Assembly (NCBI RefSeq): GCF_057098645.1
Contig: NZ_CM169472.1
Reading direction: 5' to 3' (one strand)
DNA: 64,000 nt
Part shown: piece by piece, positions 17,501-23,500 of the stretch
How positions within the stretch are numbered: the stretch's first letter is position 1
Layout: the number at the start of each line of letters is the position of its first letter
Program-made: the position numbers

Positions 17501-20500
17501 GGCATCCGCATCACCAGGCCAGAGATTTTTCACATGTACCGAACTTAACCAGGACCGCGTTCTGTACTTCAAGGGACAGCTTGTCAAAATTGACGTTAAT
17601 AGGATCGGATTCTGGTTCGACCGGAATAAAGGAAGCGGATTCCTCATCCCAGCGGTTTTCCTGCATATATTCGGTATCCCAGGAGTCGATAGCAGGGCGG
17701 GGCATGCCGGGTTTATCTTCACAGACAAGAAATTTATAAGCGCAGTCCTGAGCAGCAGGATATTGCTCCAGGAATTGCCAGGTAAATTTGGCACGGGCGC
17801 GGCGTTCATCACCGGCTTCAATGGCAGTGGCTACAGCAACTGCGCCCTCTTCTTTTATTGCCTGTTCGTCCGGAATGGCGGCGCAAATAAAGACTTTACT
17901 CATTTTGTTTTAACCTCATTACAGATTTAAGGGTGAACAAATCCCTGCCATTGCTGGCATATAAAAATGAAACCGGATATTAATTACGGTGCTGTTTTAA
18001 AGTCCTGCCGGTATTTCGTTATTATTAGTGTGAGTAGTTTTATCTACCGGATAACAGTTACCGGGAATTTTTTGTTCTGCTGCTGCAGCCATGCATTCTT
18101 TCATTGAACCGTATAAGCCAGTCACCAGCTCAAGAGATTCGCCGGAAACAAGATAAACTGTCAGAACGAGTGCAAATGTTGTATTCATTGTTTATATCCT
18201 TTTTGCAGCAGGTCCAGACGAGCCAGCATTGAAGGAATGCATACTTCATTTAACAGGTCCTGCTCGAGTTTTCTCTGCTTAATGGCGTCTTCAATAAATG
18301 TTTTGTCTCCAGTGATAACGCCAATTTCGAAACGAAGTTCAGACGTGCTGGCATTACATGATAACTTTTCCATTATCGCGTCCTCAACAATGAATTTTGT
18401 GATGCGGTGCCTGGTGCCTCCAGGTGACGTTAACCAGTTAACAATTAACGCCGGATACAGAGAATCCACCCATAACACTGTTTTTGGTTTTAACTGTTCC
18501 GCGTGCGCTGAGCCGCATTCACCGCATCACAAAATTCACTTTTAAAAAAGGGCGGCAGAGCAGTTACGGAGTAAAACTGATACCGCCAAATGTCACCAGA
18601 ATATTGATAACAGAGGGCGTTGTAGCGGGGTTGTCACTTAAGCGTATGGTCAACCTGACAACCCGGTGTCCTCAACTGGGGAAGGAATAACCCCGCCATA
18701 CTTACCGCCGCGCCATTTCGCGGATTGCCACAACCGGAAGCGCACGTTCGAAGAAATCTAACGACAAGCCTTCTAAGGGAAAGAGCTTCGCCGTACGCTT
18801 TCGCGTTGTGTGCCTGCTTTTAACCACGTCAGGCGAGGTGGTTTCCGTCGTTCCCCAACGACAGGAAATCTGTATAATCTGGATATCCCCAACAACAGGA
18901 AGGTGTTTTATATGGTGGTTCAAAAGAATTGTTCAGGTACTGGTAAGCCTGCGGACAGGTCGGACATTCCGAATACCAGGAAACATATACCTGAGAAAAA
19001 CATTCGACCAAAACCATCTCCAGCTCCTTCAGAGGAGAGGGGGAACAGCAACAATCAAACAAGCAGGTGATGATATATGGACCGGGATGATATTCTTGAC
19101 AGGGTTTTATATGGTTATTTTCTTGAACAACTATTCTCTGTAGCGACTGGTCGTCTCGATAAACTTCTCTCAGTGGTGAGTATTATCCTCGGTTTATCTG
19201 TCATTGGTGGATTTATTCCTGAAGTTTCTGGAGTTCTCATTGTTGTGATAGCAACCGTTCAAACGATTTACGGATTCGGACAAAAGTCAGGTAACGCAAT
19301 GAGAAAATCCGCAGAATATCTGCAGCTTTATGATGATGCAGAAAAATATTCCGATTCGGAATTGAAAATGCAGTTAAAGCTCCTGGAAAAAACAGATGAT
19401 AATATTTGGTCGTCGCTTAAAGATATCGCAATCTTAAAAAACCAGATCAAAATAGGAATCTCCGTAGAACAACAAGAGAAACTGTCTGCAAAATCCAAAT
19501 TGATGCGATTCCTTTGTGGTTAGGAATACCCAGATTGTTAAAGAGCATGCCGGATGCTTACCCGTGTCCGGCGAACGTATTCCACTTCGCCTGTGGAGAA
19601 CTCTTTAATTACTAACCTTCATCAGTCAGAGTTTCTTGCTAACCAGCGACGCGCGCCAGCTTCCGTTTTAAACGTTTTGCTTCTGGTATACGTCATCGCG
19701 GTGAACGTGCCGTCCAGGTTGGGGAATACTCCGCATACCAGAGATTCGTTGTTGCCAAGATTGAGCATATCCATGTTGACCTCATTTACCCTTAACGCCG
19801 GGTCGCGGAACTAAAAACCTGCTGCGCTGTTATACAAAGTGTTCCCGCCGTCATGTTCATACGCCTCGGGCTGGCTACTTAACCCCTGGCCACTGCCGGG
19901 TAACTCGAGGTATTGCCCTGCATTCTGTGGGGTGGGTGGGTGATGAATAAACAATAGCACTGCTATTTTATTGTGTAAATAGTAATGCTATTGTTTTTTT
20001 GGAGGTAAGAAAAAAAACCACCCGAAGGTGGTTGTTGGTAGGAATGATTAACAGCTTTTGTTTGGATACTGCCTTCGTGAGTGAACTACATTTACGATCT
20101 CGATGTTAGATGCTGTTACTCGGTAAAGTATTATGTAGTTAGGATGGGTCACTATCTCACGAAGGCCTAGAGCTCTTTCGCTTGGTGGATACAGGTAAGG
20201 GTGTTCAGAAAGTGACAAAACTGATGTTTCAATGCGTATTTTTAGTCTACGTGCAGCGGGAGGGTTTTCCTTGGCAATATAGGCTACGATCTGACGCAAA
20301 TCATCACGCGCAGAAGGTAGCCATAAAATGGGCAGCATTACTCACTCCTGTTCGTCGAAGCTATTTGCGCAATAAGGTTTTCCATTTCAGCCATTACTTC
20401 GTCATGCGGAATTGCAGGACGGGGGTCTGCGAGGCTTGCTGCCACTTTGGTGCGTAACCATTCGTTATAGCTGTTTTCTTGTTCGATTGTTTCAAATTCT

Positions 20501-23500
20501 GAAATTATCGGGGAAAGGACTGTACTCATGTTCTAACCTCCTCAGATTAGGCGCGACGACCTTTTTGCGCCTCTAGCCACCGCGCAACGGTTTCTTCAAT
20601 TGATTCTTTTTTCTCCTTCATTTCCTTAAGCATTTTCTCTTTGTCTTCTTTTGGGAAAGCCCTGAACGTCTGGATCAAATCTCGCTCTATAGGTTCTATA
20701 TTAAACGGAAGTTCGTTTTCCGATTGCTCCATCTCTGCGGGTAAAGCGACAACATTATCCTGCTGCAGTTCTTGGGGGTACATCCTTACAATTCGTAACA
20801 AGTCTGCCATATCTGGTCTAATTGACTCAGGCGGAACTTGTAGCAACCCAGCGAACTTGATAACAGCCTCTAGATTTAAAGGTGTCTGACCATTTAGATA
20901 ATGGCTTACTGCCCCTTGTGTCGAAAAACCCAGAATTTCTGCCGCACGCTCTTGGGTTAACCCAAGTTGAGTTTTTTTCGTCGTCCAGATTTCTTTCAGT
21001 CTCTGGGCGGCTTGCAGGTCGATCTCTGACAGGGGTTTTCTTTTCATACCTTCAATTCTAATAAGATTATTAATCTCTTTGAAATAGCGATGCTATTTAC
21101 TTTTAAAAATAACAATGTTATTAATGCTCATGGTCACATAACATGAGGTGAACAATGAATCTTGGAGAATATTTGCATCATTCCCGTATAACCCAGAAAG
21201 ATTTTGCTGAAATTGTTGGGGTAACCCAAGGGATGGTAAGCCATGTTATTACTGGACGGGCGAAACTTACGGGGGGGGAAAGTTTTACGCTGGTGTGAAG
21301 CAACAGGGTGGGTAGTGACCCCGCACGAGATTGATAGCAGTACTTACCCCAACCCAACCGATGGCATACCTGTTGACTATCAGGCTAACACACAACCCGC
21401 GCTGGGAGTTGATTCATGAAAATCAAGCATGAGCACATCCGCATGGCGATGAATGCCTGGGCATACCCTGATGGTGAGAAAGTTCCTGCAGCTGAAATAG
21501 CCCGGACTTATTTCGAACTGGGGATGACGTTCCCGGAACTGTACGACGACAGCCATCCGGAAGCCCTGGCTCGTAATACCCAGAAAAATTTCCGCTGGGT
21601 AGAGAAAGACACCCCTGATGCAGTTGAAAAAATTCAGGCGTTGTTACCAGCGATCGAAAAGGCAATGCCACCTTTGCTGGTGGCAAGAATGCGCAGCCAC
21701 AGTTCAGCTTATTTTCGGGAGCTGGTGGAGACGCGGGAGCGACTGGTGAGAGACGCTGATGATTTTGTCGCAGTGGCAATCGCCGGTTTCAATCAGATGA
21801 ACCGTGGTGGCCCGGCAGGAAATGCTGTGGCAGTGCATTGAGTGATAATAGCCATATCGAATCGCTTCCGGCAACTCGTGAGTAAAAAGATTCGGTATCA
21901 GAAGAGGTGAGTATGGCTAACGCCTGGCTCAGATTATGGCATGACATGCCAAATGACCCTAAGTGGCGAACAATTGCCAGGGTGTCAGGGCAGCCAATTG
22001 CAACAGTGATGGCAGTGTATATCCACCTCCTGGTGAGCGCGTCACGAAATGTCACGCGAGGTCACATTGATGTCACGACAGAAGATTTGGCAAGTGCGCT
22101 CGACGTGACAGAAGAGGTAATTGATTCAATTTTGCAGACGATGCAGGGGCGGGTACTTGATGGTGATTTAATCACTGGATGGGAAAAACGCCAGGTGCTT
22201 AAAGAGGACAACGGCAATATTTCGCAAACCGCAAAATCTCCTGCAGAGCGCAAGAGGGCGCAGCGAGAGAGGGAAAGAAAGCGGGAACAAAATGGCGATT
22301 GTCACGGCGCGTGGATTTGCCCCTATATTTCCAGACATCTGTTATCACTTAACCCATTACAAGCCCGCTGCCGCAGATATTCCCGTGGCGAGCGATAACC
22401 CAGCGCACTATGCGGATGCCATTCGTTATAATGCTCGAACGCCTCTGCAAGGTTCTTTGCTGCCGTTAACCCGTCTGGTTTGGGCATGATACTGATGTAG
22501 TCACGCTTTATCGTTTTCACGAAGCTCTCTGCTATTCCGTTACTCTCCGGACTCCGCACCGCCGTGTTCTTCGGTTCAAGTCCCAACATCCGGGCGAACT
22601 GGCGTGTTTCATTAGCCCGGTAGCATGAACCATTATCCGTCAGCCACTCCACTGGAGACGACGGAAGATCGTTGCCGAAGCGGCGTTCCACCGCTCCCAG
22701 CATGACGTCCTGTACTGTTTCACTGTTGAAGCCGCCGGTAGTCACCGCCCAGTGCAGTGCCTCACGATCACAGCAGTCCAGCGCGAACGTGACACGCAGT
22801 CTCTCTCCGTTATCACAGCAGAACTCGAACCCGTCAGAGCACCATCGCTGATTGCTTTCTTTCACGGCCACTCTGCCTGTATGTGCCCGTTTCGATGGCG
22901 GTACAGCAGGTTTTCGCTCAAGCAACAGCGCATTCTGGCGCATGATCCGGTAAACACGTTTGGCATTGATCGCAGGCATACCATCAAGTTCTGCCTGTCT
23001 GCGAAGCAGCGCCCATACCCGACGATAACCATACGTGGGCAGCTCTCCGATAACATGGTGTATACGGAGAAGCACATCCGTATCATCAGTGTGACGACTG
23101 CGGCGGCCATCCATCCAGTCATCGGTTCGTCTGAGAATGACGTGCAACTGCGCACGCGACACCCGGAGACAACGGCTGACTAAGCTTACTCCCCATCCCC
23201 GGGCAATAAGGGCGCGTGCGCTATCCACTTTTTTGCCCGTCCATATTCAACGGCTTCTTTGAGGAGTTCATTTTCCATCGTTTTCTTGCCGAGCAGGCGC
23301 TGGAGTTCTTTAATCTGCTTCATGGCGGCAGCAAGTTCAGAGGCAGGAACAACCTGTTCTCCGGCGGCCACAGCAGTAAGACTTCCTTCCTGGTATTGCT
23401 TACGCCAGAGAAATAACTGGCTGGCTGCTACACCATGTTGCCGGGCAACGAGGGAGACCGTCATCCCCGGTTCAAAGCTCTGCTGAACAATTGCGATCTT

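What the first reader, a model, noticed from the sequence alone, without database searches (positions are those of the whole stretch)
19950..21130. Related palindromes at two sites flank the TA/repressor operon
ATAGC-N-GCTAT type palindromes occur in the divergent promoter region and again 1 kb away just beyond the operon terminator. This resembles OR/OL operator sets and predicts a second early promoter driving leftward genes.
Basis: seen in the sequence. Interest (0 to 1): 0.4.

Follow-up and report, generated by a model that had tools for sequence, protein, structure and literature searches.

The report
Left and right prophage repressor operators
The repeated palindromes are the left and right binding sites of a lambda-like prophage repressor, which shut off the two early promoters either side of its own gene. 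It is an ordinary, well-understood design, seen here in a repressor variant not yet described.

Summary

- **Sites.** Four palindromes of the type AATAGCA-n-TGCTATT lie in two pairs. Each pair is 25 bp centre to centre. One pair (19954-19966, 19979-19991) sits just beyond the terminator of the repressor/antitoxin/toxin operon. The other (21084-21096, 21109-21121) sits between the repressor and the cro-like gene.
- **Chance.** Exact matches are 2 against 0.05 expected. Paired sites are 2 against 0.04 expected (0 of 300 shuffles).
- **Promoter overlap.** Each pair overlaps the -35 and -10 of an outward promoter, PL leftward and PR rightward, in the same register.
- **Conservation.** All 44 related loci (repressor 80-100% identical) keep the four sites at fixed positions. 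The half-sites are conserved and the central base is free.
- **Covariation.** Heteroimmune relatives (CP-933M, CP-933P, Rac, Qin) carry other motifs, each again on both sides.
- **Published analogues.** PL aligns with PL933P and with Qin dicBp, both shown experimentally to be repressor-controlled. It would drive ydfA, DicF and dicB.
- **Repressor.** Its N-terminal domain is homologous to that of lambda CI. Its C-terminal domain is of the PaaR/DicA type.

Verdict: a new member of a known kind, of low interest.

The parts
19953..19967 (.). OL1: operator AATAGCACTGCTATT, overlapping the -10 and extended -10 of PL
   Evidence: Exact match. Kept at this position in all 44 related loci. Its centre is about -16 from the inferred PL start.
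19978..19992 (.). OL2: operator AATAGTAATGCTATT, abutting and overlapping the -35 of PL
   Evidence: One mismatch. It lies 25 bp from OL1 and is conserved in relatives.
19951..19979 (-). PL: -35 TTTACA (19979-19974), 17-nt spacer, -10 TATTGT (19956-19951) preceded by TG
   Evidence: Promoter scan. The -35 is invariant and the -10 is kept in all but three unique variants among relatives. The -35 sits in the same alignment column as in the Rac, CP-933M and CP-933P PL regions. The transcription start, about 19944, is inferred.
19775..19944 (-). PL leader, conserved across immunity types (CCCACCC..CACAGAA.. up to the ydfA ATG)
   Evidence: Heteroimmune genomes match the window only up to 19941-19951, and five immunity types align from there. 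It is no more structured than shuffled sequence (z = +0.63).
19622..19774 (-). ydfA/ydaF-like gene (DUF1391), first gene downstream of PL
   Evidence: Pfam DUF1391, E 1.6e-28.
18550..18601 (-). DicF sRNA, in the PL-driven operon
   Evidence: Rfam RF00039, 76.9 bits, E 4e-16.
18185..18373 (-). dicB (cell-division inhibitor), in the PL-driven operon
   Evidence: Pfam DicB, E 3.6e-38, over residues 36-97 of the ORF 18185-18478.
20008..20033 (-). Intrinsic terminator of the repressor/antitoxin/toxin operon
   Evidence: A 7-bp stem with 4 G-C pairs, followed by a T run. Conserved in relatives.
20048..20338 (-). ParE-family toxin
   Evidence: Pfam ParE_toxin, E 3.8e-18.
20338..20529 (-). PaaA2-family antitoxin
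   Evidence: Pfam PaaA2, E 2.9e-22. Pfam and NCBIfam found no DNA-binding family in it.
20547..21047 (-). Repressor, 166 aa: lambda-CI-type N-terminal HTH domain joined to a PaaR/DicA-type C-terminal domain
   Evidence: HTH_3, E 1.8e-9. Residues 2-82 match the lambda repressor N-terminal domain, PDB 1lmb, E 1.6e-9. The C-terminal part is 58% identical to the CP-933M regulator and 50% to PaaR2, and matches the DicA C-terminus. No Peptidase_S24 domain was found.
21055..21083 (-). PRM: -35 TTCAAA (21083-21078), 17-nt spacer, -10 TAGAAT (21060-21055). It gives a leaderless repressor mRNA
   Evidence: Promoter scan. The -10 ends 7 nt before the A of the ATG at 21047. Leaderless expression was shown for paaR2 (PMC8630535, section 6) and is inferred here.
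21060..21074 (.). Candidate weak OR3 (AATAAGATTATTAAT)
   Evidence: It matches 9 of 14 consensus positions here and 11 of 14 in the 80%-identity group (sequences; counted by eye). Its centre is 20 bp from the repressor ATG, against 19 for lambda OR3. Tentative.
21083..21097 (.). OR2: operator AATAGCGATGCTATT, overlapping the PR -35 and abutting the PRM -35
   Evidence: Exact match. Conserved. Its centre is 43 bp from the repressor ATG, against 42 for lambda OR2.
21108..21122 (.). OR1: operator AATAACAATGTTATT, overlapping the PR -10
   Evidence: Two mismatches here. Most relatives have AATAGCATTGTTATT. Its centre is 68 bp from the repressor ATG, against 66 for lambda OR1.
21096..21124 (+). PR: -35 TTTACT (21096-21101), 17-nt spacer, -10 TATTAA (21119-21124) preceded by TGT
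   Evidence: Read directly. The scan does not list it, because that scan requires T at the last position of the -10. Its layout matches PL (I1). Inferred.
21155..21419 (+). cro/ydaS-like HTH gene, broken by a +1 frameshift in a G run (G8 at 21271-21278; close relatives have G7)
   Evidence: ORFs, alignment. Relatives encode 87 or 91 aa. Only the window and L008 have G8, which truncates the product to 47 aa.
21409..21426 (.). YdaT box TTGATTCATGAAAATCAA, spanning the ydaT start codon
   Evidence: The only exact match in the window. It is the published YdaT site TTGATT-N6-AATCAA (PMC9986795, PMC11879457). It also marks the right edge of the immunity-specific segment.

Best explanation
The region is the immunity module of a defective Qin/Rac-type lambdoid prophage, and the palindromes are its left (OL) and right (OR) operators. 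Dimers of the 166-aa repressor are inferred to bind 15-bp palindromes of consensus AATAGCA-n-TGCTATT. At OR, OR1 (21108-21122) covers the -10 of PR. OR2 (21083-21097) covers the -35 of PR and abuts the -35 of PRM. A weak OR3 candidate (21060-21074) lies over PRM. At OL, just past the operon terminator, OL1 (19953-19967) covers the -10 of the leftward promoter PL and OL2 (19978-19992) covers its -35. The right half of the operator (TGCTATT) itself supplies the extended -10 (TGnTATT), so a bound repressor occludes the promoter. Repressor made from the leaderless PRM transcript, together with the PaaA antitoxin and ParE toxin, keeps PR and PL off. PR drives cro-like, ydaT and replication genes. 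PL drives ydfA, DicF and dicB. The 25-bp spacing within each pair would allow cooperative binding. The 1.1-1.15 kb between the two pairs would allow an OL-OR loop if the repressor forms higher oligomers as PaaR2 does. What is shown: the sequence, its geometry, its conservation and covariation, and the protein homologies. What is inferred: binding, repression, PRM activation, cooperativity and looping. In this window the cro-like gene is frameshifted and IS2 splits the replication gene. The switch is therefore probably locked in the repressed state.
For: - **Sites and statistics:**
- **Promoter overlap:** PL and PRM come from the scan. PR is read. The PL and PR blocks are 73-75% identical in register.
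- **Conservation:** 42 IMG/VR loci plus 2 E. coli genomes, with repressors 80-100% identical, all have sites at -74 and -49 and at about +1049 to +1090 from the repressor ATG. In 38 unique site instances AATA and TATT never change, the centre base carries 0.1 bit, and the flanks vary. At OL, 16 of 16 outer operator columns are invariant against 45 of 122 other intergenic columns (Fisher p = 6e-7).
- **Covariation:** the CP-933M type has AAAAACTGTT..AACAGTTTTT at both sites. Rac has TTAGGC-N3-GCCTA at both. CP-933P has TTTAGT-type repeats at both.
- **DNA-binding domain and motif:** the N-terminal domain is homologous to that of lambda CI. It is 54% identical to the CI of Stx2a phage Lyz12581Vzw. 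That phage has AATAGTCTAGCTATT between cI and cro, and ATTAGTCTCGCTATT flush with a TTGACT -35 beyond its cI-side cargo genes.
- **Geometry:** operator centres lie 20, 43 and 68 bp from the repressor ATG, against 19, 42 and 66 in lambda.
- **Experimental analogues:** PL933P is repressed by PaaR2 and YdaS, paaR2 is leaderless, and PaaR2 forms octamers (PMC8630535). dicBp is repressed by DicA through operators found on both sides of dicA (PMC10448788).
- **Module boundaries:** homology to heteroimmune prophages stops at window 19941-19951, the edge of the PL -10, and resumes at 21403-21410, the YdaT box.
Against: - No binding or expression data exist for this repressor type, and none of the operator sequences appears in the searchable literature.
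- PR has a poor -10 (TATTAA) and the promoter scan does not list it.
- Only two clear sites exist per side, and no OL3 was found. OR3 is weak (9 of 14 positions).
- In the 80%-identity group an A-run varies the OL1-OL2 spacing from 24 to 28 bp, and with it the PL spacer. Strict spacing is therefore not always kept.
- A 15-mer comparison of OR against OL across six immunity types separates cognate from non-cognate pairs only weakly: 12-15 on the diagonal against 10-13 off it.
- The C-terminal domain is only 50-58% identical to PaaR regulators, over 44-64 residues. Oligomerisation is extrapolated from them.
Confidence: 0.85

Rival explanations
1. The palindromes are mainly the targets of the Cro-like (YdaS-type) protein or of YdaT, and not of the 166-aa repressor.
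For: In lambda and CP-933P, Cro or YdaS shares the operator region with the repressor (PMC8630535, sections 7-9). The cro-like protein stays closely conserved alongside the same operators in all relatives.
Against: The motif tracks the repressor's N-terminal domain. The Stx2a phage CI, 54% identical in that domain, has the same AATAG..CTATT palindrome. YdaT has its own, different box, present at 21409-21426. Shared use by the Cro-like protein is expected and does not conflict with the main explanation. Exclusive use is unlikely.
Confidence: 0.07
2. The similarity between the two sites only reflects two AT-rich promoters of common descent, with no operator function.
For: The -35 and -10 elements overlap the repeats. 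The region is AT-rich. The count of matches with up to 2 mismatches is not enriched in the window (18 against 20).
Against: Dyad symmetry is not needed for a promoter. The invariant positions are the symmetric AATA and TATT, while the centre base is free. Heteroimmune relatives keep the -35 in the same column but swap the palindromes on both sides together. Exact and paired sites far exceed chance.
Confidence: 0.04
3. The left-hand element is a hairpin (arms 19946-19968 and 19977-19999) that acts as a second terminator or as a recombination site.
For: The arms are 23 nt long and 87% complementary, with an 8-nt loop (I2). It lies right after the operon terminator and at a mosaic boundary.
Against: The extended symmetry is not kept in the relatives at about 92% DNA identity, whereas the two individual palindromes are. 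The stem is AT-rich. A strong canonical terminator already lies 20 bp upstream.
Confidence: 0.03

Closest known systems
CP-933P immunity region of E. coli O157:H7 (paaR2-paaA2-parE2 with OR, OL and PL933P; Jurenas et al. 2021, PMC8630535)
   Same: The gene order is the same: regulator, PaaA antitoxin, ParE toxin, terminator, then OL/PL. A divergent ydaS-like and ydaT pair lies on the other side. The repressor start is leaderless. Related repeats occur at both OR and OL. The PL -35 sits in the same alignment column, followed by the same conserved leader. The regulators share their C-terminal ~44 residues at 50% identity.
   Different: The N-terminal DNA-binding domain is unrelated by BLASTP. 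The operators differ: GTTTAGTAA-type 18-bp repeats there, AATAGCA-n-TGCTATT here. PaaR2 has 123 aa against 166 here. Three OL operators are reported there and two are found here. Binding and repression were measured there and not here.
Bacteriophage lambda OL/OR with CI and Cro
   Same: The repressor N-terminal domain is homologous (E 1.6e-9). Operator centres lie at almost the same distances from the repressor ATG: 20, 43 and 68 bp against 19, 42 and 66. Adjacent operators are 23-25 bp apart against 23-24 in lambda. The repressor mRNA is leaderless, cargo genes and a terminator lie between the repressor gene and OL, and OL1 and OL2 overlap PL.
   Different: There is no S24 peptidase or RecA-cleavage domain. 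The C-terminal domain is of the PaaR/DicA type. The half-site sequence differs. The OL-OR distance is about 1.15 kb against 2.4 kb. The cargo is a toxin-antitoxin pair and not rexAB. No OL3 is present, and no N or nut system is evident in the PL leader.
Qin prophage dicA/dicC immunity locus and dicBp (Bejar et al. 1988, as cited in PMC10448788)
   Same: The PL-equivalent promoter drives ydfA, dicF and dicB. It is repressed by a non-cleavable repressor through operators found both between the repressor and cro-like genes and before dicBp. The repressor C-terminus is weakly similar (25% over 51 aa; NCBIfam DicA).
   Different: The DNA-binding domain and operators differ. Qin has no toxin-antitoxin pair between the repressor gene and PL.
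Rac prophage racR/ydaS region
   Same: The layout is the same. TTAGGC-N3-GCCTA palindromes of the same format flank a TTGACA -35 both in the racR-ydaS spacer and downstream of racR, followed by the same conserved leader.
   Different: RacR shows no BLASTP similarity to this repressor. Rac has no toxin-antitoxin pair here.

Membership tests
Lambdoid immunity region with OL/OR operator sets | Divergent repressor and cro-like genes, with repeated dyad-symmetric sites in the spacer overlapping PR and PRM | tested here: met
   Two strong sites and one weak candidate lie in the 107-bp spacer.
Lambdoid immunity region with OL/OR operator sets | A second set of the same sites overlapping a leftward promoter beyond the repressor operon | tested here: met
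   Sites at 19953-19967 and 19978-19992 overlap the promoter TTTACA, 17 nt, TATTGT. They are conserved.
Lambdoid immunity region with OL/OR operator sets | The operators change together with the repressor's DNA-binding domain among heteroimmune relatives | tested here: met
   Searches cover the five immunity types. Searches show a related DNA-binding domain with a related motif.
Lambdoid immunity region with OL/OR operator sets | Three operators on each side | tested here: inconclusive
   OR3 is only a weak candidate (9 of 14 positions). Nothing resembling OL3 was found near 20005.
Lambdoid immunity region with OL/OR operator sets | The repressor binds the sites and represses PL and PR; the two sets are joined by a DNA loop | not testable with these tools
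   This needs EMSA or footprinting, reporter fusions and looping assays. Such data exist only for the analogues (PMC8630535, PMC10448788).
PaaR-PaaA-ParE three-component toxin-antitoxin locus | A ParE-family toxin and a PaaA2-family antitoxin | tested here: met
   Pfam ParE_toxin, E 3.8e-18, and PaaA2, E 2.9e-22. Neither Pfam nor NCBIfam found a DNA-binding family in the antitoxin.
PaaR-PaaA-ParE three-component toxin-antitoxin locus | An upstream co-oriented regulator gene homologous to PaaR | tested here: met
   Only the C-terminal 44-64 residues are homologous: 50% to PaaR2 and 58% to the CP-933M regulator. The N-terminal domain belongs to a different lineage.
Lambda CI / LexA-type cleavable repressors | An N-terminal lambda-CI-type HTH domain | tested here: met
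   Residues 2-82 match lambda repressor residues 3-82, E 1.6e-9.
Lambda CI / LexA-type cleavable repressors | A C-terminal S24 peptidase domain for RecA-stimulated self-cleavage | tested here: not met
   Pfam gives no Peptidase_S24 hit. The match to full-length lambda CI is confined to the N-terminal domain in all but one PDB chain. The C-terminus matches PaaR and DicA instead.

The most novel reading that the evidence does not exclude
This immunity type is a natural domain swap. A lambda-CI-type DNA-binding domain, with lambda-like operator geometry and E/E at the positions I recall as lambda's acidic activation patch, is joined to the non-cleavable PaaR/DicA oligomerisation domain. The result would be a lambda-geometry switch that ignores the SOS response, closes a short loop of about 1.1 kb around an addictive toxin-antitoxin pair, and has its extended -10 built into the operator half-site. 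If so, it would be a compact natural system for asking how much of lambda's cooperativity, looping and PRM activation depends on the CI C-terminal domain.
Probability: 0.4. Interest if true: 0.35.

Novelty: new member of a known kind. Interest (0 to 1): 0.2.

Why it matters
The result assigns a regulatory logic to an immunity type found in 71 of 5,426 complete E. coli genomes. It names the operator sequence and the three promoters. It also predicts that the cell-division inhibitors DicF and DicB are silenced by this repressor. The design itself was established for lambda decades ago. It has also been shown for Qin and for CP-933P. The finding therefore extends a catalogue and does not change understanding. 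Its practical value is in annotation and in predicting heteroimmunity among Qin/Rac-type prophages.

Tried and rejected
- **PL leader as a structured RNA (put- or nut-like).** The 171-nt leader is conserved across immunity types. It folds no better than shuffles (z = +0.63), and Rfam has no hit there. Its small ORFs are not conserved at the protein level (by eye). Dropped.
- **RacR as a relative of this repressor.** No BLASTP similarity.
- **OR-by-OL best-15-mer matrix across six immunity types.** The diagonal is highest but the margin is small. I do not use it as main evidence.
- **Literature search for six operator strings.** No paper holds any of them.
- **Third operator at OL.** None seen near 20005.
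- **The count of matches with up to 2 mismatches as evidence.** Not enriched. Only the exact and paired sites are informative.
- **Two distant loci (L047, L048; 35% identity).** They lack the motif and were not followed up.

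
Full report
**What is in the sequence**

The window holds four matches to ATAGC-N3-GCTAT in the region of the finding. 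They lie at 19954-19966 (exact), 19979-19991 (one mismatch), 21084-21096 (exact) and 21109-21121 (two mismatches).

- The two exact matches are the only ones in 64 kb. The expectation is 0.053, and none of 300 dinucleotide shuffles had two.
- With at most one mismatch there are 6 matches against 1.29 expected.
- With at most two mismatches the count is unremarkable (18 against 20). The signal is therefore in the exact sites and their arrangement.
- Each locus holds two sites exactly 25 bp apart. Such pairs occur twice against 0.037 expected.
- The two 40-nt blocks are 73-75% identical.

**Gene context**

On the minus strand lie three genes in a row:

- a 166-aa HTH repressor (20547-21047);
- a PaaA2-family antitoxin (20338-20529);
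- a ParE toxin (20048-20338).

A strong intrinsic terminator follows (stem 20016-20033). On the plus strand are a cro/ydaS-like HTH gene from 21155 and ydaT (21416-21841).

Left of the terminator, still on the minus strand, come ydfA (DUF1391), the DicF sRNA (18550-18601, Rfam E 4e-16), dicB (Pfam E 3.6e-38) and a DUF1482 gene. This is the immunity region of a Qin/Rac-type lambdoid prophage that carries a three-component paaR-paaA-parE locus.

**Promoters**

- **PL.** The scan finds a leftward promoter over the left pair: TTTACA, 17 nt, TATTGT, with TG before the -10, at 19979..19951.
- **PRM.** The scan also finds TTCAAA, 17 nt, TAGAAT at 21083..21055. Its -10 ends 7 nt before the repressor ATG, which implies a leaderless mRNA.
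- **PR.** I read this directly from the sequence: TTTACT (21096-21101), 17 nt, TATTAA (21119-21124), preceded by TGT. The scan does not list it because the -10 lacks a final T.

PL and PR have the same layout. One operator ends flush with the -35 (GCTAT-TTAC). The other supplies the extended -10 (TGnTATT).

**Conservation**

- 71 of 5,426 complete E. coli genomes carry this immunity type over at least 80% of its length.
- Two such genomes, at about 92% DNA identity, keep all four sites with substitutions.
- A scan of IMG/VR gave 42 further loci with repressors 80-100% identical. Every one has sites at -74 and -49 from the repressor ATG and two more at about +1049 to +1090.
- 38 unique site instances give the consensus A-ATAGC-A-n-T-GCTAT-T. 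AATA and TATT never change, the centre base is free (0.1 bit), and the flanks vary.
- At OL, 16 of 16 outer operator columns are invariant against 45 of 122 other intergenic columns (p = 6e-7).
- Among these loci the PL -35 is invariant, and the -10 is kept in all but three unique variants.
- One irregularity: in the 80% group an A-run changes the OL1-OL2 spacing to 24-28 bp.

**Covariation among heteroimmune relatives**

- Heteroimmune prophages match the window only up to 19941-19951, the edge of the PL -10. The match resumes at 21403-21410, the start of ydaT. The immunity-specific cassette therefore runs from OL to the end of the cro-like gene.
- Inside it, each type carries its own motif on both sides:
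  - the CP-933M type has AAAAACTGTT..AACAGTTTTT;
  - Rac has TTAGGC-N3-GCCTA;
  - CP-933P has TTTAGT-type repeats.
- An alignment of the PL regions puts the -35 hexamers of the window, CP-933M, CP-933P and Rac in one column (TTTACA, TTGACA, TTGACT, TTGACA). A leader shared with Qin as well begins right after the -10.

**The repressor**

- Residues 2-82 are homologous to the lambda CI N-terminal domain (PDB 1lmb, E 1.6e-9).
- The same region is 54% identical to the CI of Stx2a phage Lyz12581Vzw.
  - That phage has AATAGTCTAGCTATT between cI and cro.
  - Beyond its cI-side cargo genes and a terminator, it has ATTAGTCTCGCTATT flush with a TTGACT -35.
  - The motif therefore follows the DNA-binding domain.
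- The C-terminal part is 58% identical to the CP-933M regulator and 50% to PaaR2, and resembles the DicA C-terminus.
- No S24 peptidase domain is present.
- RacR is not detectably similar.

**Geometry compared with lambda**

| Feature | This window | Lambda |
|---|---|---|
| Operator centres from the repressor ATG | 20 (weak OR3 candidate), 43, 68 bp | 19, 42, 66 bp |
| Spacing between adjacent operators | 23 and 25 bp | 23 and 24 bp |
| OL1-OR1 distance | about 1.15 kb | 2.4 kb |

The window values come and the lambda values.

In the alignment, lambda's 'SQESVADKMG' lines up with 'TQERAAEILG' here. From my own knowledge, and not tested here, lambda CI residues E34 and D38 contact sigma to activate PRM. 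The aligned residues here are E and E. Activation of PRM from OR2 is thus plausible but inferred.

**What is already known**

- For CP-933P, Jurenas et al. (PMC8630535) showed that PaaR2 and YdaS footprint the spacer between their genes.
- They showed that paaR2 is leaderless.
- They found a PL933P promoter with OL1-3 beyond parE2, repressed about 100-fold by either protein.
- They note that PaaR2 forms octamers in solution.
- For Qin, dicBp is repressed by DicA through operators found on both sides of dicA (PMC10448788, citing Bejar et al. 1988).
The new items are the particular repressor chimera and its operator sequence, which I could not find in the searchable literature.

**State of this copy**

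- The cro-like gene has G8 at 21271-21278 where close relatives have G7. The product is truncated to 47 aa instead of 87.
- OR1 carries an extra G-to-A change, seen only in the window and L008.
- IS2 (about 22320-23633) splits the DnaT-like replication gene.
- The prophage is defective, and the switch is probably locked in the repressed state.

**Verdict**

This is a new member of a known kind. Binding, repression, cooperativity and looping remain inferences until tested.

Noticed in passing
window 21409-21426: An exact YdaT box, TTGATTCATGAAAATCAA, spans the ydaT start codon. It is the only exact match in the window and is identical in form to the published YdaT (CII-like) site. It also marks the right edge of the immunity-specific segment.
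   Followed up: partly
window 19775-19944 (minus strand): The roughly 170-nt PL leader is shared across heteroimmune Qin, Rac and CP-933 type prophages. The wider 2-kb query that contains it matched 3,946 of 5,426 E. coli genomes, many through this segment. It is no more structured than shuffled sequence, has no Rfam hit, and its small ORFs are not conserved as protein. Why it is conserved is unexplained.
   Followed up: partly
window 21271-21278: A G8 homopolymer frameshifts the cro-like gene. Close relatives have G7 and an intact 87-aa protein. It could be a real inactivating slip or a sequencing error. Locus L008 shares it, along with the OR1 variant ATAAC..GTTAT.
   Followed up: yes
window ~22320-23633: An IS2 element is inserted in the DnaT-like/ydaU-like replication gene, whose halves lie at 21907-22398 and 23615-24319. 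Evidence: TnpA and TnpB NCBIfam hits and 33-nt terminal inverted repeats.
   Followed up: partly
window 18550-18601 and 18185-18373 (minus strand): A DicF sRNA and a dicB cell-division inhibitor lie in the operon that PL would drive. A weak, sub-threshold STnc100 hit lies at 18396-18536.
   Followed up: partly
L014-L021, L043 (about +1062 to +1090 from the repressor ATG): In the 80%-identity group a poly-A run between OL2 and OL1 varies in length. The operator spacing becomes 24-28 bp and the PL spacer changes with it. This may tune or disable PL by slippage.
   Followed up: no
L053 (phage Lyz12581Vzw) 2103-5553: The slot between cI and OL/PL holds a methyltransferase, a BsuBI-type restriction enzyme and a SocA-family gene. 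The window has its toxin-antitoxin pair in the same slot, and lambda has rexAB there. It appears to be a recurring cargo position inside the immunity operon.
   Followed up: no
window 15860-17821 (minus strand): A 653-aa ORF further down the leftward operon has a C-terminal Rv2179c-like 3'-5' exoribonuclease domain (Pfam E 2.4e-66).
   Followed up: no
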